Of a stretch of 64,000 nt of DNA, positions 28,506-54,536 are shown in pieces; position 1 is the first letter of the stretch, and each line of letters starts with the position of its first letter. Below the pieces are notes generated by a model. That model ran no database searches, had not been told where the DNA came from, and worked only from the letters and a program-made list of their open reading frames with translations. This DNA comes from an uncultured Gammaproteobacteria bacterium. Its GTDB lineage: Bacteria; Patescibacteriota; Patescibacteriia; XYB2-FULL-38-15. The stretch covers positions 50,938 to 114,937 of the forward strand of contig OZ246416.1 of NCBI GenBank assembly GCA_965231095.1, in the 5' to 3' direction. Made by a program: the position numbers and the translations under genes.

Positions 28506-28754
28506 CTAGCCGATCCTTTGGACGACTTTGACATCGTGGATCTTCTGGACGTCGAACCAGTGAGTTGCTTCGCAGAGCGGTTTGTGGGGTTGATCGTACC
28601 CGCAGGGCAAGAGTTGGAAGATGTGACCATGGACCGTGATCACCTCGCCGATAAAAGCGTCCCATGGGTCGACCCACAATTGTTTTCCCTCTTTAGCCGT
28701 CTTCACAAAAGAGATCAACTTGCCGAGGTACCTTTCGGCCGATGCTTCAGCCAT
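28506..28754 (-). CDS. GC-rich island B gene 3: 83-aa soluble His/Cys-containing protein (hypothetical)
   Basis: MAEASAERYLGK...ITVHGHIFQLLPCGYDQPHKPLCEATHW; SD GAGGAGGAGG; start overlaps stop of upstream gene (gATGgcTGA). Confidence 0.55.
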   Translation of the reverse strand: MAEASAERYLGKLISFVKTAKEGKQLWVDPWDAFIGEVITVHGHIFQLLPCGYDQPHKPLCEATHWFDVQKIHDVKVVQRIG

Positions 28755-28980
28755 CGTCTTCCTCCTCCTCTTCTTCGCAGTTTTTCTTGCGGGCGCGGCG
28801 GAGAGATTCAGCCACGCAAATGACAAGGACGACGGTCATGCCGACAAGCACGGCGATCATGTAGGCCTTTCGCCAGAAGGTCAGTCCCTCGGCGGGAAGA
28901 ACCACAATGACGCCGATCACGCAGAGAATCGCGAGTAGGGCGAAGAACAGAGCGCGTAGCACGCTCCAGAGTTGTTTCAT
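28747..28980 (-). CDS. GC-rich island B gene 2: 77-aa two-TM membrane protein with poly-Glu/Asp C-terminal tail (holin-like topology)
   Basis: MKQLWSVLRALFFALLAILCVIGVIVVLPAEGLTFWRKAYMIAVLVGMTVVLVICVAESLRRARKKNCEEEEEEDDG; SD GGGGGGAG; ATGA start/stop overlap with gene 1. Confidence 0.55.
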   Translation of the reverse strand: MKQLWSVLRALFFALLAILCVIGVIVVLPAEGLTFWRKAYMIAVLVGMTVVLVICVAESLRRARKKNCEEEEEEDDG

Positions 28981-29210
28981 GGGCGTGACTCCCCCCAACG
29001 CCGCCGGGCGAAAAGCGATGCCACCGAGGTGCCGACAACCGAAAGAGCAATCCCGACGAAGCATCCAAGGATCACTTCCGTCTTCAGCTCTCCGAAGAGG
29101 TTGGTATGCGCCGCCAGGGGAATCGCCGCGGCCAGGGTGCATCCGATCAGGGCGAAGACGAGCAGACAACGGCCCGTCCTATCCTCACGTCGCGATTCTT
29201 CAAGAGTCAT
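28977..29210 (-). CDS. GC-rich island B gene 1: 77-aa two-TM membrane protein (holin/antiholin-like topology)
   Basis: MTLEESRREDRTGRCLLVFALIGCTLAAAIPLAAHTNLFGELKTEVILGCFVGIALSVVGTSVASLFARRRWGESRP; SD GGAGGAAG 2 nt before ATG. Confidence 0.55.
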   Translation of the reverse strand: MTLEESRREDRTGRCLLVFALIGCTLAAAIPLAAHTNLFGELKTEVILGCFVGIALSVVGTSVASLFARRRWGESRP

Positions 29211-29248
29211 GGCTTCCTCCTTTGCCACTTATAAGTTAATATAAAAAG

Positions 29249-30232
29249 ATGAAAGTGTCAAGAATTAAACCCCGCCTAAAGGCGGGACTCCGATCGGAGT
29301 ATAAATTGCCAAAACTAATTGTTATTTTAGGTCCGACGGCGTCGGGAAAGACGGGCTTGTCTTTGAAATTGGCAAAAAAATTTGGTGGAGAAATCGTGAA
29401 TGCCGACTCGCGGCAAGTTTATAAAAAAATGGATATTGGAACTGGAAAAGTTGAAAATAAAAAAGGAGTAAGGCATTATTTGTTGGACGTGGTCAATCCC
29501 GACGAAGAGTTTACTTTGGCAGGTTATAAAAAAAAAGCCGTGGCGGCGATTGACCATATTTTGAAACGTGGGAAAACCCCGTTTTTAGTCGGTGGCACTG
29601 GGTTATATATTCAAGCCATCGTGGACAACTTAACTATTCCCAGTGTTCCGCCGAATAAGAAACTTCGCACTGAATTCGAGCATGAACTGGCTAAAGCAAA
29701 AGAATTAGGAATTAAGAAGTATGAATTAAGAGTTTTGGAGAAGTGGTTTAAGAAATTATTAAAACTTGATCCTTGCGTAAAAGATGTAGTGGACGCTAAA
29801 AATCCGCGGAGAATAATTCGGGCGCTGGAAATTTGTCTTGCAACCGGCCGGCCGTTTTCAAAAATGCGGGGAAAGGGCGAGCCGTTGTTTCACGCGCTAC
29901 AACTTGGCATCACCATGCCGCGAGAAAAACTTTATAAAAATATTGATGATCGCGTAGACGAAATGATTAAAGACGGGTTAATAGAGGAGACAAAAAAATT
30001 ATTAAAAAAATATAATCCGAATATCCCATCAATGAGCGGGATTGGATATAAAGAAATAGGGGACTATCTGGGTGGAAGCTATGATTTAGATGAGGCGGCA
30101 GAGAAAATTAAATTTCGAACGCACGCGTACGCTCGGCGGCAGATGACGTGGTTCCGCCGTGGTAAAAGAATTAAGTGGATAAAAAATTATAAAGAAGCGG
30201 AACGAAAAATTGGTAAATGGCTAAATGGTTAA
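29249..30232 (+). CDS. miaA: tRNA dimethylallyltransferase; real start probably the SD-preceded TTG near 29309 (the first ~60 nt as tracked look like island B promoter/operator sequence)
   Basis: P-loop ILGPTASGKT, DSRQVYK motif; annotated N-terminal 20 aa are GC-rich and contain hairpins and the palindrome ACTCCGATCGGAGT. Confidence 0.8.
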   Translation: MKVSRIKPRLKAGLRSEYKLPKLIVILGPTASGKTGLSLKLAKKFGGEIVNADSRQVYKKMDIGTGKVENKKGVRHYLLDVVNPDEEFTLAGYKKKAVAAIDHILKRGKTPFLVGGTGLYIQAIVDNLTIPSVPPNKKLRTEFEHELAKAKELGIKKYELRVLEKWFKKLLKLDPCVKDVVDAKNPRRIIRALEICLATGRPFSKMRGKGEPLFHALQLGITMPREKLYKNIDDRVDEMIKDGLIEETKKLLKKYNPNIPSMSGIGYKEIGDYLGGSYDLDEAAEKIKFRTHAYARRQMTWFRRGKRIKWIKNYKEAERKIGKWLNG

Positions 30233-42506: not shown

Positions 42507-42717
42507 TTAAACCTCTCCGCCCACGGCGGAAAATGAGGTGAAATTGGCTAATATTTATTAAGTTATTATAGCATAGATTATTTTGTAAAACAAGGGTTTA
42601 ATGTTTGACTTTTTATAATAAAAAAAGATAGGATAAAAGCGCTTCTCATGGCGAGAAGACCCGGGCCACGGGCAGTGGCAAATTACCTTCGGGCTTACAG
42701 TCCGGAAGGAGACAGAA

Positions 42718-43632
42718 ATGGCGAAGTATGAAAAGCTGAACCTGGGTCAGATTGAAGCGCTCGTGAACATCTTGGGTGGCATGGAGGTCGTGAAGAAGAT
42801 TCTTCGCGGGACGAAGAAGCCTCTTCCCCCGGACAAAGGCTTTCGGTCCCTTTTTGACAACTACGGCCGCCGCGTTGCGCCTCCTACGATGAGCGACAAG
42901 GGAGGAGCCGATCCGGAGGTGTGTTTGGCTCAGCCGGCGATGCATCTTCCACCGGGACCGGGAACAAGGTTCAAGGGTTTGTGCGAACGCCTTGGCTGGC
43001 AGAACCAGATGACTCCGGAAGAATTTCGCGCGCGGGTGGACAAGGCGGTAGAGAAGATCAACTTCGGCAGCATCAGAGAAGAGGTGAGGGGAATTTTGGG
43101 TGGTGTGTATCTGCCCTTTGGTCTTCCGCAGGTGACCTCCAGCGATTGCGGGGAGATCCTTGACGAACTCGGCTTGATCAATGCGGTTGAGCGTGTTTTC
43201 AAGGAAAGATTTCCCGAGGGGCAGTTTTTCGGACAAGAAAAATCCCTGAAGGGAGGCTTCCGCTTGATCGAAGGAAGTCGCCACGAGCGATTTTTGGAGG
43301 CCTTGACAAAGGAGCCGGTCGTTGCCATCTACTTCCCATTGGCGCTCCAAGGGTATTTGCCCGATAAGGCCGTCGAGCAGATGGAGAGCCTGCCGGAAGA
43401 GTTTCTGCTTTCCGGTGTGGTTGATACAGCGGCGGCGATCATGATGTATCCGGAAGTTCTACTTCGGGACACCTGCGTGCCGCAGCTCGGATGTTCGGCA
43501 GTGAAGCGCTGGGTGACCGGAGTTTCCTCATTCGATGTCAGTGACGGCAGCGACAAGATCACGCTCGCCTTCGGGGGGTGCCAGATCTTTGGGCGCGGCA
43601 AGTTTACTTCCGGCCTCACCGTCATCGCGTAG
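42718..43632 (+). CDS. GC-rich island C: hypothetical 304-aa protein, no recognisable domain
   Basis: ~60% GC; SD GGAAGGAGA 6 nt before ATG; TTGACT promoter-like element at 42605; downstream terminator 43695-43728. Confidence 0.6.
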   Translation: MAKYEKLNLGQIEALVNILGGMEVVKKILRGTKKPLPPDKGFRSLFDNYGRRVAPPTMSDKGGADPEVCLAQPAMHLPPGPGTRFKGLCERLGWQNQMTPEEFRARVDKAVEKINFGSIREEVRGILGGVYLPFGLPQVTSSDCGEILDELGLINAVERVFKERFPEGQFFGQEKSLKGGFRLIEGSRHERFLEALTKEPVVAIYFPLALQGYLPDKAVEQMESLPEEFLLSGVVDTAAAIMMYPEVLLRDTCVPQLGCSAVKRWVTGVSSFDVSDGSDKITLAFGGCQIFGRGKFTSGLTVIA

Positions 43633-43694
43633 TGCAGAGTCGTTGTGCCTTGAGTTAAACCCGATAAGGGTTTGATTCTTGGACGCTAGTCGTC

Positions 43695-43728
43695 TGAGCG
43701 GATCCCGTGCGGTCCGCTCTTTTTTATA
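43695..43728 (+). terminator. intrinsic terminator of island C
   Basis: GAGCGGAtcccgtgcggTCCGCTCtttttt. Confidence 0.65.
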
Positions 43729-49623: not shown

Positions 49624-49650
49624 ATAAATATTTAAATATTATAACATAAA

Positions 49651-49692
49651 AAATCACCCGAGCGTTGCGTGCGATTGGGCGCGCAAAACTCG
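49651..49692 (-). terminator. intrinsic terminator of island D 197-aa gene
   Basis: Minus strand CACCCGAGttttgcgcgcccaatcgcacgcaacgCTCGGGTGattttttat. Confidence 0.6.
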
Positions 49693-49706
49693 GGTGTGAC
49701 GGTCGG

Positions 49707-50297
49707 TTACGGGGAAGTGATGTCCTTCGTCCCGTCGTAGGGATCGCCGGAGTCGGCGGAATCGTCGGCGGGCGGCGCAGCGGGCGAGACGACCTCGACT
49801 TCCTCCTCGATGTCCTCGGCCACCACGACCGTGGTTTCCGGCGCGTCTTCGAGGATCTCGACCATCTTCATCGCCTGGCGCACACAGGCCGACAGCTCGG
49901 CGGTGGAGAAGGCGTAGGAGAGTTGTTCGAAGGTAACCCGGCGTCCTGGTTCCGTGTCCTTCGACATCCAGTGTTCGATCAGCTTGGCGAGATCATCGTC
50001 GGAGACGCGTTTCAGGATCTCCTCGATCGCGGATTTTGCGCCGTTCTCGATACCGCCGAGCATCGCCTGGCGCATGATGGGCACGGTGTCTTTCTTGTCA
50101 CCGGGCCAGATCCCGAGTAGATCGCCAACGATCTTCTCGAAGGTGTGCACTTGGGCAATGTGAGCCAGGCCGCTGGCCCGGCTCAAATTGATGTGGTGCA
50201 AGATGATCCAGATGTTCAGGACGCCGAGATCCACGAAGTGCTGGAGCATCGCCGCTAGCGTCAACTTCTTGTCTCTTTCCTTCTTGGATTCCGCCAT
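49707..50297 (-). CDS. GC-rich island D gene 2: hypothetical ~197-aa protein (helical, acidic C-terminal tail)
   Basis: MAESKKERDKKLTLAAMLQHFVDLGVLNIWIILHH...; ~62% GC; minus-strand promoter cTTGACAa-N17-TAAGGT at 50342-50370; 5' UTR palindrome CTCCGATTAATCGGAG. Confidence 0.55.
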   Translation of the reverse strand: MAESKKERDKKLTLAAMLQHFVDLGVLNIWIILHHINLSRASGLAHIAQVHTFEKIVGDLLGIWPGDKKDTVPIMRQAMLGGIENGAKSAIEEILKRVSDDDLAKLIEHWMSKDTEPGRRVTFEQLSYAFSTAELSACVRQAMKMVEILEDAPETTVVVAEDIEEEVEVVSPAAPPADDSADSGDPYDGTKDITSP

Positions 50298-50382
50298 TGT
50301 CTTCCACTCGCTCCGATTAATCGGAGTCCTTTCTATCCGCACCTTAGTTTAAAAAATAAAATTTGTCAAGATAAAAAAAGAG

Positions 50383-50445
50383 CCCGTGGATTGCTTGGAG
50401 TTGGGGCACGGGACGTGTCTCCAAAGCAATCCACGGGCTGGGTGA
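50383..50445 (-). terminator. long-stem intrinsic terminator after island D zinc-ribbon gene
   Basis: agcccgtggattgcttggag...ctccaaagcaatccacgggct ~20-bp stem followed on minus strand by ctcttttttt. Confidence 0.6.
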
Positions 50446-50608
50446 TGCCCAGCGGGTGCCGTGAGGCTGGCCGGCTGGGCTCAGTCGCGTGACCCGCCCG
50501 GGGGGTAGGAGGGCACCGGGGAGCCGACGCGAGCTTGGGGAACGGAGAGTTCTCGAGCGAACTCGCAAACTCTCACGTTATTGGTGGGTAAGTTACAGGC
50601 GGGTCTTG

Positions 50609-50881
50609 TCAGGGTCGGGGGCAGTTCCGGACGACATGCATTCGCTTGCGCCTGGCGCGGGCGACGCCGTCCGTGTACTTCTTGCCCTTGCGTTCGGCGA
50701 AAGTGTGCATCGAGCAGTAGTGCCCGGTATTCCCGCTACGGAGAATCGTTCCACAGTCGGGTTCCTGGCATCGCCGCGGCTTGCCATCGTCGGTGCTCCG
50801 ACCGCTGTCGTGCACGTCGCCGAGCGAATTGGCGCCGACCGTGCCGGTACCCTGATCCATTCCGAGCGCGCTCCAGTCCAT
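50609..50881 (-). CDS. GC-rich island D gene 1: 90-aa Cys/His-cluster (zinc-ribbon-like) protein, possibly nucleic-acid binding
   Basis: ...RRCQEPDCGTILRSGNTGHYCSMHTF...; SD GGAGGAGGAAGG before ATG; 5' UTR hairpin ccttgcgt..acgcaagg. Confidence 0.55.
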   Translation of the reverse strand: MDWSALGMDQGTGTVGANSLGDVHDSGRSTDDGKPRRCQEPDCGTILRSGNTGHYCSMHTFAERKGKKYTDGVARARRKRMHVVRNCPRP

Positions 50882-51004
50882 CCTTCCTCCTCCTCAACCT
50901 TCCCTATTATCAACTCGTCCTGTCCACCAGGCCGAGGCTTAGGGCCACCTTCCTTGCGTTTTGACGCGTGCCAATAACGCAAGGCCACCCTGTTTGTTGA
51001 TTTT

Positions 51005-51065
51005 AGAATATAATAAAAAGCTTAATTTGTCAACCCCTTGACAAATTTTAAGATTGTGGTAGAGT
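51005..51065. promoter_or_regulatory. divergent sigma70-type promoter pair with palindromic overlapping -35 boxes (TTGTCAAccccTTGACAA)
   Basis: Plus: TTGACA(51038-43)-N16-TAGAGT(51060-65). Minus: TTGACA-N16-TATTCT (plus agaata 51005-10). Perfect inverted repeat ttgtcaa/ttgacaa around cccc. Confidence 0.55.
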
Positions 51066-51071
51066 GTTCTG

Positions 51072-51388
51072 TAGGGTAATGGGGAGTCCTGTTTGGTTGA
51101 TGCCGGCAGCGCACCGGCGTCGTGGGCAGTCATTTTTTGCTTCACTCTGAATCCGGAACCCTTGGCTGGTGAACAGCGCGTTGTAGCGCGGCTGGCCTTG
51201 TGGCGAAGGACCCACGGAGTGGCCCGACAGGAACCCGGTTCGCGAGCTGCCCGTTAAGCAGACGTGGGCTGAAATCTCCCCAGCGCATCTGATCCTCCAA
51301 GTCCGCTTCGGCGGGCACGGAGGTCACCATTCTTTGCACACCGCTGCATTTCGCGTTGTGCCCGTCGGTCGAACACCCTGTTCGACCG
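51072..51388 (+). ncRNA. candidate ~320-nt GC-rich structured non-coding RNA of unknown class, driven by the island D plus-strand promoter and ending in a strong intrinsic terminator
   Basis: No plus-strand ORF with SD; CCGCuucgGCGG UUCG tetraloop hairpin, several GC stems; terminator GTCGGTCGAACaccctGTTCGACCGACtctttttt at 51354-51388. Confidence 0.45.
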
Positions 51389-51394
51389 ACTCTT

Positions 51395-51418
51395 TTTTAT
51401 ATAAAAAACCGGCCTTGC
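51395..51418 (-). terminator. intrinsic terminator of prfA
   Basis: Minus strand CCGGCCgcaaGGCCGGtttttt, preceded by cccgactaaagtcggg hairpin. Confidence 0.6.
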
Positions 51419-52605: not shown

Positions 52606-52863
52606 CTACTTTGTTTTTTTCGCTCTCGGTTTCTTTTCTTTTTTTGTTGCCGCCATAGACGCCTTCTTTTCCATTTTTTCTTTGAATTTTTCCACGCGTC
52701 TGGCCGAATCAACTAATTTCTGTTTGCCGGTGTAGAACGGATGGCAGGCAGAACACAACTCAACCTTTATTTCTTTTAAGGTTGAGCCGACGGTAAAAGC
52801 GTTGCCGCAGGCGCAAGTCACTTTTGCTTTTGGATAATATTCTGGGTGAATTTCTTTTTTCAT
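52606..52863 (-). CDS. rpmE: 50S ribosomal protein L31
   Basis: [23 protein letters not shown]...[10 protein letters not shown]. Confidence 0.9.
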
Positions 52864-52925
52864 AAAATAGATTATTTATTTACATTAATCTTAATTTAAC
52901 ATAAGGCCGTGAGTTTGGCAAGGGG

Positions 52926-52956
52926 TTGACAAAATTACGGGGTGGAGTAATAAGAT
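52926..52956 (+). promoter_or_regulatory. sigma70-type promoter of island E (TTGACA ... TAAGAT)
   Basis: ggggTTGACAaaattacggggtggagtaaTAAGATgag. Confidence 0.5.
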
Positions 52957-52987
52957 GAGTAGGGGTTGCCACAAAAGGAGGTGTTCT

Positions 52988-53224
52988 ATGGCAAGAAGAA
53001 GTTGGAGTTTCGAGCATCGGGGTACGGAAGGCGTCATCAAGACGCCTGACGGGGAGCACGTCGTCCATTCCAAAGAGGAGGCCAAGCGGCACTTGCAAGA
53101 GGGTGCACACCTGAAATATATCAGCTCTTCGATTGCCGGCCCTACCCTCGCGGAGCGGGACGAGGCCAGGGAATGGAGAGAGGCGGTGAGGCAGGTCAAT
53201 GAGTCCAGCCTTCCCGACAAGTAG
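52988..53224 (+). CDS. GC-rich island E: hypothetical 78-aa protein
   Basis: MARRSWSFEHRGTEGVIKTPDGEHVVHSKEEAKRHLQEG...; SD aaaGGAGGtgttctATG; terminator 53233-53285 with nested tccga-gaaa-tcgga hairpin. Confidence 0.55.
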   Translation: MARRSWSFEHRGTEGVIKTPDGEHVVHSKEEAKRHLQEGAHLKYISSSIAGPTLAERDEAREWREAVRQVNESSLPDK

Positions 53225-53232
53225 TCGGACAT

Positions 53233-53285
53233 CGGTTGTGTTGGTCGGCAGGAAATCCGAGAAATCGGAGAGTACTGCCGGCCGT
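53233..53285 (+). terminator. intrinsic terminator of island E with nested GAAA-tetraloop hairpin
   Basis: GTCGGCAGgaaaTCCGAgaaaTCGGAgagtaCTGCCGGCcgttttttt. Confidence 0.6.
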
Positions 53286-53621
53286 TTTTTTATTTTCAAA
53301 AATCTCTCCCCCTCCTTTCGAAGGAGGGGTTAGGGGTGGTTTTTAAAAACTCCCACCCCACCTAACCTCCCCTCGGGCAGGGGAGGAATATTGAGCATTT
53401 GCCCTTGCCCCCACACCAATTTCAGCGAGGCCATTTTTATCCGAGTTTAAAATAAAAAAATTGGTGTGGGGGCTTGCATTATTTTTGCTTTTGTGTAAAA
53501 ATAGATGAAAGTCATTTATTAATAGTAATCCCACATGTTTTGCCTTTAAAACTTGTTCCTGATCCCCGCCACTGCGGGGACCCGCAAGTTTTGGCAAAAC
53601 AGAGGTTAAAAAGGAAAATTT

Positions 53622-54407
53622 ATGCCAGAGATCCCAACAATGTTGGAAATGCTCCAGGCCGGTGTTCATTTTGGACACAAGGCCTCAAAGTGGCATCCGA
53701 AAATGAAGCCGTTTATTTTTGGAGAACGGAGCGAGGTCCACATCATCAACTTAGAAGAAACGGCGAAAAAATTAAAAGAAGCGTTAGAATTTGTCAGAAA
53801 AACAACAGCCGCGGGCGGAGTTGTTCTTTTTGTCGGTTCAAAAGAGCAAGCCAAAGAAATTGTGAAGCGCCACGCAAAAGACGCCGGCATGCCTTATGTT
53901 ACGACTCGTTGGCTCGGCGGAACTTTTACAAATTTTAAAACTATCAAGAGTGTGACTGATCGGTTTACTGATTTAAAAAACAAAACAGCGACCGGCGGAC
54001 TCGCGAAGTACACCAAAAAAGAGCAGTTGAATTTCCAAAAAGAAATTGTGAAATTGGAAGAATTGGTTGGCGGCATTGAAACTTTAAAGAAATTGCCGGA
54101 AGCGATTTTTGTCGTTGACGTCAGGGCGGAAAAAACCGCGGTGGCCGAAGCGAGAAATAGAAAAGTTCCGGTGGTCGCTCTTTGCGATACAAATATTAAT
54201 CCGGAAGATGTTGATTATCCGGTTCCTTCAAACGATGACGCGGTAAAAGCGATTGAAATGATGGTGGGACTTTTCGCCGCGGTCGCGAAAGAGGGAAAAG
54301 CGGAGTTTGAATCAAAAAGAGGCGCGGCTCCGGCTGCGGAAAAACCGGCGGCTCCAACTCCAACTCCGGCTCCGGTTACGGAGGTGAAAGAGGAAGAGAA
54401 AAAATAA
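53622..54407 (+). CDS. rpsB: 30S ribosomal protein S2
   Basis: MLEMLQAGVHFGHKASKWHPKM...; Pro/Ala-rich C-terminal tail. Confidence 0.9.
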   Translation: MPEIPTMLEMLQAGVHFGHKASKWHPKMKPFIFGERSEVHIINLEETAKKLKEALEFVRKTTAAGGVVLFVGSKEQAKEIVKRHAKDAGMPYVTTRWLGGTFTNFKTIKSVTDRFTDLKNKTATGGLAKYTKKEQLNFQKEIVKLEELVGGIETLKKLPEAIFVVDVRAEKTAVAEARNRKVPVVALCDTNINPEDVDYPVPSNDDAVKAIEMMVGLFAAVAKEGKAEFESKRGAAPAAEKPAAPTPTPAPVTEVKEEEKK

Positions 54408-54536
54408 TTCAATTGAAGTAATTAGTAATTGGTAATTAGTGCAGAACCACCCCCAACCCCCTCCTTCTAAAGGAGGGGAAAATGGTGGTTGAAATTACTC
54501 GTTGCCCGTTACGCGTTACTCGTTACTTATAAACAT

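What the first reader, a model, noticed from the sequence alone, without database searches (positions are those of the whole stretch)
52920..53285. Island E: single-gene GC-rich cassette (78 aa) between rpmE and rpsB
Complete promoter/SD/ORF/terminator unit. The terminator loop contains the TCCGA-GAAA-TCGGA hairpin shared with other islands.
Basis: seen in the sequence. Interest (0 to 1): 0.5.

Follow-up and report, generated by a model that had tools for sequence, protein, structure and literature searches.

The report
Swappable GC-rich small-gene cassette
Between two ribosomal-protein genes of an uncultured Patescibacteria (CPR) bacterium sits a self-contained, GC-rich mini-gene for a 78-residue protein of unknown function, which occupies the same spot in all sampled relatives but is swapped between lineages as two very different versions.

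Summary
Window 52926-53291 is a compact unit: a TTGACA -35 box, an AAGGAGG ribosome-binding site, a 78-codon ORF (52988-53224) and a 41-nt hairpin followed by T7. Its GC3 is 0.71, against 0.43±0.04 for core genes.

It is protein-coding. All inferred indels are in frame, and only frame +1 shows pN/pS of about 0.5. The mRNA body has no excess structure and there is no Rfam hit.

It is not a private insertion. The same cassette lies upstream of rpsB in at least 10 related lineages, and nowhere else in 5.8 billion proteins, phages, plasmids or IMG/VR.

It exists as two allele classes that differ by 35-39% in nucleotides. Both are GC-rich, and both are scattered across the host tree. Class A copies are far younger (dS 0.04-0.34) than the flanking genes (dS 0.4-2.9). 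The cassette is therefore exchanged between lineages.

The 41-nt terminator hairpin is unique within the window, so "shared with other islands" fails here. In relatives, however, it also ends an unrelated GC-rich 134-aa cassette. It is 100% identical between alleles whose coding sequence is 38% diverged.

Relatives carry a variable G7-G10 tract in the promoter spacer. The window's tract is interrupted.

The protein's function is unknown. The closest analogue is a phage "moron", but this one sits in a chromosomal core region.

The parts
52926..52931 (+). -35 box TTGACA of the cassette promoter
   Evidence: Read directly and located by script. Conserved as TTGAC[AG]/CTGACG in 11 of 13 related copies. 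It lies back to back with the divergent rpmE promoter on the minus strand at 52921-52893.
52932..52950 (+). Promoter spacer (19 nt) holding the interrupted remnant (GGGGTGGAG, 52939-52947) of a poly-G tract
   Evidence: Relatives carry G7-G10 here, giving spacers of 14-19 nt with a mode of 16. Tract length differs between near-identical strains: L002 has G8 and L003/L004 G9; L024 has G9 and L025 G7. Across all loci examined, only one G/C run of 7 or more lies outside this promoter (G7 at L002:4375), and the 64-kb window has none.
52951..52956 (+). -10-like hexamer TAAGAT
   Evidence: Conserved as TAAG[ACT]T in relatives. The consensus scan accepts it in L021 at 16-nt spacing, 10 of 12 matches. 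In the window the spacing is 19 nt and the scan rejects it.
52957..52987 (+). 5' leader with Shine-Dalgarno AAGGAGG (52975-52981)
   Evidence: The promoter-to-ATG stretch (-35 box through leader) is 83% identical to allele class B (L024), whereas the CDS is 63% identical. The SD is invariant in all copies. A weak hairpin pairs GCCA with the start codon region (-7 to -12 kcal/mol, z -0.6 to -2.3). It is not significant.
52988..53224 (+). CDS of the 78-aa orphan protein (stop TAG included)
   Evidence: Searches give the ORF. Gene callers called it in public assemblies. Within-class pN/pS is 0.52-0.53 in frame +1, against 0.84-1.15 in frames +2 and +3. Fisher p = 0.006 (W-L002) and 0.0007 (L024-L028). 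All five inferred indels are in frame: 21, 6, 3, 3 and 3 nt. GC1/2/3 = 0.58/0.49/0.68 on a 9-nt-offset reading; GC3 of the correct 52988-53224 CDS is 0.709.
53225..53242 (+). Short 3' UTR spacer between stop codon and terminator hairpin
   Evidence: Partly conserved (CGGACATCGG...) in copies that carry the type-1 terminator. The whole 3' UTR is 91% identical to L024.
53243..53283 (+). 41-nt terminator hairpin: 9-bp outer stem, internal loop GAAA/GAGUA, 5-bp inner stem TCCGA/TCGGA, GAAA loop
   Evidence: Fold. It matches L024 at 41 of 41 positions although the CDS is 38% diverged. Covariance model R1 finds it once in the window. The relatives scanned gave eight further copies, two of them behind the unrelated 134-aa gene (L005 and L023); L029 carries a similar hairpin read by eye and was not scanned. 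98% of cells pair, with one compensatory U-A to C-G pair.
53285..53291 (+). T7 run completing the intrinsic terminator
   Evidence: Read directly. A T-run follows the hairpin in all copies except L022, where further hairpins and a later T-run follow.

Best explanation
Island E is a stand-alone expression cassette, "moron-like" in design, for a small soluble orphan protein restricted to one clade. The proposed working is as follows.

1. Transcription starts from the cassette's own sigma-70-type promoter.
2. The mRNA has a strong SD, a 78-codon ORF, and a 41-nt hairpin plus T-run that ends it. It is therefore expressed independently of rpmE and rpsB.
3. The product is predicted as a three-stranded beta-sheet followed by two helices. 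The N-terminal sheet is conserved (FE-RGT-G...TP-G...SK-EA) and the C-terminal helical half evolves quickly.
4. The locus is fixed in the rpmE-rpsB gap of one Patescibacteria clade, but its content circulates. Two deeply diverged allele classes replace one another between lineages. The most likely route is homologous recombination through the conserved leader and the flanking sequences after DNA uptake. No recombinase, target-site duplication or terminal repeats are present.
5. In relatives, a hypermutable poly-G tract in the promoter spacer probably switches or tunes expression. In this window the tract is interrupted, so the promoter is locked in one state.

Shown: the anatomy, coding status, synteny, allele dimorphism, the incongruence with the host tree, and the conservation and reuse of the hairpin.

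Inferred: promoter activity, recombination as the route of exchange, and phase variation.

My guess at a role is a binding or recognition protein engaged in some conflict or contingency function, such as phage, host or kin interaction. I hold that guess only weakly, at about 0.25.
For: **Anatomy.**

**Coding.**
- Frame-specific purifying selection and Fisher tests.
- In-frame indels.
- SD and start codon conserved, with ATG replaced by GTG in two copies.
- No excess mRNA structure: z = 0.04 and -0.68.
- No Rfam hit.

**Clade-wide synteny.**. NCBI names one homologue's source "Patescibacteria group bacterium".

**Restricted distribution.**
- 4 clusters, then 7 with a broader profile, out of 5.8 billion proteins.
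- Among the 1.84 billion representatives, two real family members (the class A representative and one class B homologue) and three spurious repeat-protein hits.
- Nothing in GTDB representatives beyond one known copy.
- One true hit in the metagenome contigs.
- Nothing in IMG/VR, phages or plasmids.

**Exchange between lineages.**
- Class A dS is 0.04-0.34, against 0.4-2.9 in rpsB, rpmE, prfA and psp1.
- L002-L022: island 97.9% identical, rpsB 84.8%. W-L022: island 88.2%, rpsB 91.4%.
- Classes A and B are interspersed on the rpsB tree.
- The near-identical tract runs from about -30 (L002-L022) or -110 (L002-L021) to about +245 relative to the ATG. That is the leader plus the CDS.
- 3' modules are shuffled: terminator types 1, 2 and 3, with or without the 134-aa cassette.

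**Fast protein evolution.** Between-class dN is about 0.48 and omega 0.66-0.88 (0.47-0.63 in the N half, 0.84-1.17 in the C half). Within-class omega is about 0.5.

**Poly-G tract.**

**Fold.** AF2 model with pLDDT 76.7 and pTM 0.62.
Against: - There is no expression data. In the window the -10 box is weak or mis-spaced, so this particular copy may be poorly transcribed.
- Poly-G length differences between assemblies could be homopolymer assembly errors.
- Only about 10 distinct copies exist, so the selection and recombination tests have little power. The W-L024 test for omega below 1 is not significant (p = 0.24).
- Recombination is inferred from incongruence, not from mapped breakpoints in a proper test.
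- A GC-rich donor, which the composition implies, was never found.
Confidence: 0.6

Rival explanations
1. A recently acquired foreign gene: a single-gene genomic islet that came by horizontal transfer from a GC-rich donor outside this clade (a phage, a plasmid or the host organism of the episymbiont) and has not yet drifted to the host's composition.
For: GC3 is 0.71 against 0.43±0.04. The design is moron-like. It is an orphan. Recent substitutions lean towards AT: class A has 29 S>W against 17 W>S, and 15 against 4 at third positions. That is what amelioration predicts.
Against: It is present at the same locus in every sampled relative. It occurs as two allele classes with dS of about 0.6-0.7 between them, and both are GC-rich. 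The promoter, leader and terminator are shared. No homologue exists outside the clade in any collection searched. There is no tRNA, integrase, direct repeat or inverted repeat at the borders. The rpsB control shows a similar AT-ward excess (51 against 34), so the directional test does not discriminate.
Confidence: 0.12
2. It is not a protein gene but a GC-rich structured non-coding RNA, and the ORF is incidental.
For: Within class A the variable columns are almost evenly spread over codon positions, 17/16/22. dS is very low. The antisense frame is also open. GC-rich intergenic units in AT-richer genomes are often RNAs. The neighbouring unit at 51038-51400 does look non-coding.
Against: Frame +1 alone shows purifying selection. 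All five inferred indels are in frame. The ORF, SD, start and stop survive 38% nucleotide divergence. Folding energy equals that of shuffles, z = 0.04 and -0.68. No Rfam match appears even at E up to 10.
Confidence: 0.04
3. An integron-like or otherwise site-specific cassette system. Here the 41-nt imperfect hairpin is a recombination site (analogous to attC) at which unrelated GC-rich ORFs are inserted, excised and arrayed.
For: The same hairpin ends two unrelated cassettes, arranged in tandem in L023 (983-1023 and 1575-1615). The 134-aa cassette is present in some relatives and absent in others. The hairpin is far more conserved than a terminator needs to be: 41 of 41 positions against a CDS that is 38% diverged. 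The 3' ends are modular.
Against: No integrase or other recombinase lies within ±10 kb. Each cassette has its own promoter, unlike integron cassettes. In most copies the hairpin is followed by a T-run, and a terminator role explains that. The window holds one copy only. The near-identical exchanged tract ends before the hairpin.
Confidence: 0.08
4. A lineage-specific accessory factor of the translation apparatus, such as a small ribosome-associated protein, placed among translation genes (prmC, prfA, rpmE, rpsB, tsf).
Confidence: 0.08

Closest known systems
Phage 'morons' (for example HK97 gene 15): independent transcription units inserted between two genes
   Same: It has its own promoter, one small ORF and its own factor-independent terminator. 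Its GC content differs from that of the neighbours. It is wedged between two conserved genes and spreads horizontally. This matches the definition in PMC3594210.
   Different: It is not in a phage or prophage. The flanks are rpmE and rpsB, and there are no viral homologues. It is present in all sampled relatives rather than being "more DNA" in one of them. It exists as two alleles that replace each other at a fixed chromosomal site.
Contingency loci with homopolymeric tracts in the promoter spacer (Neisseria, Campylobacter and others; e.g. PMC6389960, PMC8355987, titles and abstracts seen)
   Same: In relatives, a G7-G10 tract lies between the -35 and -10 boxes. It changes the spacer from 14 to 19 nt and differs between near-identical strains. 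Only one G/C run of 7 or more (G7 at L002:4375) lies outside this promoter in the loci examined.
   Different: In this window the tract is interrupted (GGGGTGGAG), so switching is not expected. Switching has not been shown in any copy. The product is a small cytoplasmic protein, not a surface structure.
Integron gene cassettes with attC hairpins
   Same: A single ORF is followed by a conserved imperfect hairpin. That hairpin is reused behind unrelated ORFs in tandem.
   Different: The cassettes carry their own promoters. There is no intI or attI. The hairpin also serves as a terminator stem followed by a T-run. There is no array in the window.
Dimorphic or idiomorphic loci maintained across species by allelic replacement (known to me from pherotype, immunity and mating-type style loci; general knowledge, not tested here)
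   Same: Two allele classes differing by 35-39% in nucleotides sit at one fixed locus. Their flanks are conserved and they are interspersed on the host tree.
   Different: No partner gene, signal peptide or receptor is evident, so what the dimorphism discriminates is unknown.

Membership tests
Phage moron | Own promoter and own factor-independent terminator around one ORF | tested here: met
   TTGACA plus TAAGAT, consensus-like in relatives and weak in the window. Hairpin plus T7, z = -3.4. Activity was not measured.
Phage moron | Nucleotide composition unlike the neighbouring genes | tested here: met
   GC3 0.709 against 0.431±0.038, z = 7.4.
Phage moron | Lies inside a phage or prophage genome, between phage genes | tested here: not met
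   The flanks are rpmE and rpsB, and ±10 kb is housekeeping genes. No hits in phages, IMG/VR or BFVD.
Phage moron | Extra DNA that is absent from related genomes | tested here: not met
   Every sampled relative has the cassette at this locus. Only the adjacent 134-aa cassette shows presence/absence variation.
Recently acquired genomic island | Mobility signatures at the borders (tRNA, integrase, direct or inverted repeats) | tested here: not met
   The only tRNAs are at 46-879. No integrase within ±10 kb. No meaningful flanking repeats.
Recently acquired genomic island | Homologues in a plausible donor outside the clade | tested here: not met
   All true homologues lie at the same locus of related Patescibacteria contigs.
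SSR-mediated phase-variable (contingency) locus | Uninterrupted homopolymeric tract (about 7 or more) in the promoter spacer or ORF | tested here: not met
   The longest G run in the window's spacer is 4, and the whole window has no G/C run of 7 or more. Relatives do meet it, with G7-G10.
SSR-mediated phase-variable (contingency) locus | Tract length polymorphism among closely related strains | tested here: inconclusive
   L002 G8 against L003/L004 G9; L024 G9 against L025 G7. These come from assemblies only, so homopolymer errors are not excluded.
SSR-mediated phase-variable (contingency) locus | Reversible ON/OFF expression | not testable with these tools
   Needs reads from single populations or an expression assay.
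Integron gene cassette | Promoterless ORF with a 3' attC site, next to intI/attI | tested here: not met
   The cassette has its own promoter. No integrase nearby. attC core sites were not assessed.
Structured non-coding RNA | Match to a known family, or folding or covariation beyond chance across the unit | tested here: not met
   No Rfam hit. Body z = 0.04 and -0.68. Only the terminator hairpin is structured.
Diversity-generating retroelement target | Template repeat matching the variable 3' part of the ORF, plus a reverse transcriptase | tested here: not met
   No second copy of any part of the cassette in the window beyond a 14-nt promoter match. No RT among the called genes within ±10 kb.

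The most novel reading that the evidence does not exclude
The GC-rich orphan units of this Patescibacteria clade would form one dedicated, integrase-less cassette system: island E, the 134-aa cassette, and perhaps the 304-aa, 196-aa and 90-aa units, whose UTRs are also better conserved than their coding sequences. In this reading they are contingency genes that circulate between lineages at fixed chromosomal slots. The invariant 41-nt hairpin, whose internal loop resembles a bulged-G module, would be a recognition element rather than a plain terminator. It could be recognised by a cassette-encoded RNA-binding protein, or by a processing or recombination machinery. The GC-richness would be actively maintained.
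Probability: 0.12. Interest if true: 0.75.

Novelty: new variant of a known kind. Interest (0 to 1): 0.5.

Why it matters
CPR/Patescibacteria genomes are small and streamlined, and most of their accessory biology is unknown. This locus shows a compact way of carrying and exchanging accessory genes inside the most conserved part of the chromosome, with no visible mobility gene.

- The slot is fixed and the expression signals are conserved.
- The coding sequence is replaceable and exists in two very different versions.
- In relatives, a hypermutable promoter tract sits in front of it.

If the several GC-rich units of these genomes follow the same rules, they would mark the genes through which these episymbionts adapt quickly to phage, host or kin. 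They would also give a sequence signature for finding such genes in other CPR genomes: GC3 outliers with conserved UTRs and the R1 hairpin.

The unsolved origin of the GC-richness is itself a testable question about amelioration versus maintenance of composition.

Tried and rejected
**Family and fold searches that gave nothing usable for the 78-aa protein.**
- Sequence libraries: Pfam, PHROGs, PADLOC and NCBIfam.
- Other island proteins: Pfam and PHROGs, again without result.
- PDB by sequence profile: best E = 1.1.
- Foldseek: PDB best E = 1.2; BFVD best E = 0.16, TM 0.49, to an uncharacterised 78-aa Aeromonas phage protein.
- afdb50 was not available.

**Spurious profile hits.** The exhaustive HMM search also returned three long repeat proteins (P0009-P0011). 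I regard them as spurious low-complexity or beta-hairpin matches.

**Collection scans.**
- The metagenome pattern scan returned 13 loci, of which only L015 is real.

**Hypotheses rejected.**
- *Non-coding RNA.* See the rival explanations.
- *DGR target.* There is no template repeat.
- *Transposon or MITE borders.* There are no target-site duplications or terminal repeats.
- *Regulatory leader hairpin sequestering the start codon.* It is weak, not significant, and not conserved in L029.

**Claim given up.** I first read the persistence of GC3 across alleles with dS of about 0.7 as proof that GC is actively maintained. The directional substitution test does not support that claim. The counts are 29:17 for class A, 30:21 for class B and 51:34 for the rpsB control, which is inconclusive. 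I have downgraded the claim to an open question.

**Untested lead.** The internal loop GAAA/GAGUA resembles a sarcin-ricin or loop E module. That resemblance comes from memory only and was not tested.

Full report
**1. What is there**

The window has 43.8% GC. From its gene content it is a small-genome bacterium, and NCBI labels the source of one homologue "Patescibacteria group bacterium".

rpmE (52606-52863, minus strand) and rpsB (53622-54407, plus strand) are called by ORF listing and by Pfam hits on the public contig. Between them lies a 366-bp unit with these parts:

- TTGACA at 52926-52931.
- A 19-nt spacer.
- TAAGAT at 52951-52956.
- A 31-nt leader with AAGGAGG at 52975-52981.
- An ORF at 52988-53224 (78 aa).
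- An 18-nt spacer.
- A 41-nt hairpin at 53243-53283.
- A T7 run at 53285-53291.

The hairpin region folds at -28.1 kcal/mol, z = -3.4.

The ORF has GC 0.586 and GC3 0.709. The 49 core ORFs of the window have GC3 of 0.431±0.038 with a maximum of 0.53, so the ORF sits at z = 7.4.

- In this genome the -10 element is weak or mis-spaced, and the consensus scan does not call a + strand promoter.
- The hairpin is not shared with other islands of the window.

**2. Coding or RNA?**

A GC-rich unit in an AT-richer genome could be a structured RNA, and some first results pointed that way. Within the closest relatives, variable columns are spread 17/16/22 over codon positions. Synonymous divergence is very low.

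The balance of evidence is nevertheless clearly for a protein:

- Treating each frame as coding, only frame +1 shows purifying selection within allele classes. pN/pS is 0.53 and 0.52 in frame +1, against 0.84-1.15 in frames +2 and +3. Fisher p is 0.006 for W-L002 and 0.0007 for L024-L028.
- All five inferred indels are multiples of three: 21, 6, 3, 3 and 3 nt.
- The SD, the start codon (ATG or GTG) and the TAG stop are kept in all copies. These include alleles whose CDS is 38% diverged.
- The mRNA body folds no better than shuffled sequence, z = 0.04 and -0.68.
- There is no Rfam match even at E up to 10.

**3. Distribution**

- A search of 5.8 billion proteins found four clusters with 78-100% identity.
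- An exhaustive profile search of 1.84 billion representatives added one distant relative.
- A broader profile added two more.

Every copy whose context could be read lies directly upstream of rpsB. In all but L022 it also lies next to rpmE, or next to a 141-144-aa membrane-protein gene that relatives have beside rpmE and the window lacks.

Nothing was found in GTDB species representatives beyond one known contig. Nothing was found in IMG/VR, GenBank phages or plasmids. A metagenome pattern scan found one true copy.

So this is a clade-restricted orphan at a fixed locus, not an insertion private to this genome. All copies are GC-rich (GC 0.59-0.62, GC3 0.68-0.82) in genomes of 41-49% GC.

**4. 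Evolutionary behaviour**

The copies fall into two classes:

- Class A: W, L002-L006, L021-L023.
- Class B: L024/L025, L028, L029.

The classes differ at 35-39% of CDS nucleotides and at about 50% of residues.

On an rpsB tree the classes are interspersed. W(A), L022(A) and L024(B) are mutual nearest relatives, and L021(A) pairs with L029(B).

Within class A, dS is 0.04-0.34, whereas rpsB, rpmE, prfA and psp1 of the same genome pairs have dS of 0.4-2.9. Two examples:

| Pair | Island identity | rpsB identity |
|---|---|---|
| L002-L022 | 97.9% | 84.8% |
| W-L022 | 88.2% | 91.4% |

Low dS is not a general constraint on synonymous sites, because A-versus-B dS (0.56-0.73) equals that of the flanks. 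The simplest reading is that cassette alleles have moved between lineages after those lineages diverged.

The near-identical tract runs from about -30 or -110 to about +245 relative to the ATG. That is the leader plus the CDS.

The 3' ends are modular. There are three terminator types, with or without a second cassette.

No integrase, tRNA, target-site duplication or terminal repeat is present. I therefore infer homologous recombination through the conserved leader and flanks as the route of exchange. This is inference, not demonstration.

The protein evolves quickly. Within classes omega is about 0.5. Between classes it is 0.66-0.88, with 0.47-0.63 in the N half and 0.84-1.17 in the C half. 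The neighbouring genes have omega of 0.04-0.13.

**5. The hairpin**

The 41-nt hairpin matches at 41 of 41 positions between W and L024, although their CDS is 38% diverged. The 3' UTR as a whole is 91% identical, and the promoter-plus-leader stretch 83%.

A covariance model built from six copies finds it once in the window. Scans of the relatives gave eight further copies; L029 has a similar hairpin read by eye. Two of the scanned copies follow an unrelated Cys-rich GC-rich 134-aa gene (GC3 0.87) that sits just downstream of the 78-aa cassette in L005 and L023. L023 thus has the hairpin twice, in tandem cassettes.

98% of cells pair, and one inner-stem pair covaries from U-A to C-G.

The hairpin is a reusable cassette end-piece, and it is conserved beyond what a terminator needs. 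What reads it is unknown.

From memory, the internal loop GAAA/GAGUA resembles a bulged-G (sarcin-ricin or loop E) module. That is an untested lead. Copies behind the 134-aa gene have AAGUA and AAGUG instead.

**6. The promoter**

Relatives have TTGAC[AG]/CTGACG, then a spacer ending in G7-G10, then TAAG[ACT]T. Spacers are 14-19 nt, most often 16.

Tract length differs between near-identical strains: G8 against G9 in L002 and L003/L004, and G9 against G7 in L024 and L025.

Across all loci examined, only one G/C run of 7 or more lies outside this promoter (G7 at L002:4375). The 64-kb window has none.

This is the classic layout of a promoter-spacer contingency tract, but switching is not shown and assembly error is not excluded. 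In the window the tract is interrupted (GGGGTGGAG plus TAA). This copy should therefore be locked, and possibly weakly expressed.

**7. Composition**

Several other units in the window are GC3 outliers (0.66-0.82):

- 28506-29228
- 42718-43632
- 49707-50297
- 50609-50881

The 304-aa unit behaves like island E. It belongs to a small orphan family. Homologues with 41-54% identity sit at syntenic sites, are still GC-rich, and have 5' and 3' UTRs visibly better conserved than the CDS.

I first took this persistence as proof of active maintenance of GC. The directional test does not decide the question. Counts of S>W against W>S are:

| Set | All positions | Third positions |
|---|---|---|
| Class A | 29:17 | 15:4 |
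| Class B | 30:21 | 15:8 |
| rpsB control | 51:34 | 41:22 |

Two readings remain open. One is repeated import from an unsampled GC-rich reservoir that shares the same UTRs. The other is maintenance by selection or biased conversion.

**8. Function**

There is no signal peptide or membrane segment by inspection.

AlphaFold with seven sequences gives a three-stranded sheet (residues 7-26) followed by two helices (29-44 and 54-72), with pLDDT 76.7 and pTM 0.62.

The following features together make a conflict or contingency role the best guess, held at roughly 0.25:

- A conserved N-terminal sheet with a fast-changing C-terminal half.
- Allelic dimorphism.
- Horizontal replacement.
- A probable switchable promoter in relatives.

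**9. Comparison and verdict**

In design the unit works like a phage moron: its own promoter and terminator, deviant GC and horizontal spread (PMC3594210). It fails two membership criteria. It is not in a phage, and it is not extra DNA relative to relatives.

It is not an integron cassette, because it has its own promoter and there is no integrase. It is not a DGR target. It is not a known RNA.

I class it as a new variant of a known kind: a chromosomal, core-embedded, moron-like cassette with replaceable alleles.

Interest is moderate (0.5). The phenomenon is real and somewhat unusual, but the function is unknown and the sample is small.

Noticed in passing
window 51038-51400 (+): A GC-rich unit (about 0.6) with a TTGACAAAT promoter and a hairpin plus T terminator, but no called gene. 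It is 89.5% identical to L005:7604-7993 and L015, more than the adjacent prfA (81%). Fold z = -2.46. No Rfam hit. It is a candidate non-coding RNA of about 340 nt.
   Followed up: partly
window 53306-53387 and 53407-53473; similar unit at about 54440-54480: Two small imperfect palindromic inserts lie between the cassette terminator and the rpsB leader. One is CCCCTCCTT..AAGGAGGGG with GGTTAGGGGTGG/CCACCCCACCTAACC arms; the other is GCCCCCACACCAATTT/AAATTGGTGTGGGGGC. The first type recurs in L005:10941-11045 and L029:490-569, and the second type lies upstream of the cassette in L024. They look like MITE-like elements.
   Followed up: partly
window 53476-53621 (+): The rpsB 5' leader is 82-87% conserved in all relatives and contains the hairpin 53556-53587. 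It is probably an S2 autoregulatory leader. No Rfam family matched.
   Followed up: no
window 28506-29228 (-), 42640-43725 (+), 49650-50375 (-), 50380-51030 (-): Other GC-rich orphan units (GC3 0.66-0.82) with TTGACAAAT-type promoters and their own terminators. They comprise three small ORFs (two of them membrane proteins), a 304-aa ORF, a 196-aa ORF, and a 90-aa CxxC...CxxH ORF. The 304-aa family is syntenic and GC-rich in relatives, and its UTRs look better conserved than its CDS.
   Followed up: partly
L005:10472-10924 and L023:1163-1615: A second GC-rich cassette lies directly downstream of the 78-aa cassette in some relatives and is absent from the window. It encodes a 134-aa Cys-rich protein (GC3 0.87), has its own promoter, and ends in the same 41-nt terminator hairpin.
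   Followed up: yes
L002:7837-8271, L005:9458-9883, L006:908-1342, L024:1704-2129: Relatives carry a native-GC 141-144-aa membrane-protein gene between rpmE and the cassette. The window lacks it.
   Followed up: no
L007/L002 (CAYZNO010000013.1): The public record is titled "uncultured Gammaproteobacteria bacterium", although its gene order and sequences match the Patescibacteria-labelled relatives. This is probably a taxonomic mislabel of the MAG.
   Followed up: no
window 50312-50325: The palindrome GACTCCGATTAATCGGAGTC lies in the 5' UTR of the 196-aa island gene, and a related ACTCCGATCGGAGT lies at about 29287-29300. They share only the TCCGA/TCGGA core with the island E hairpin, and the covariance model does not detect them.
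   Followed up: partly
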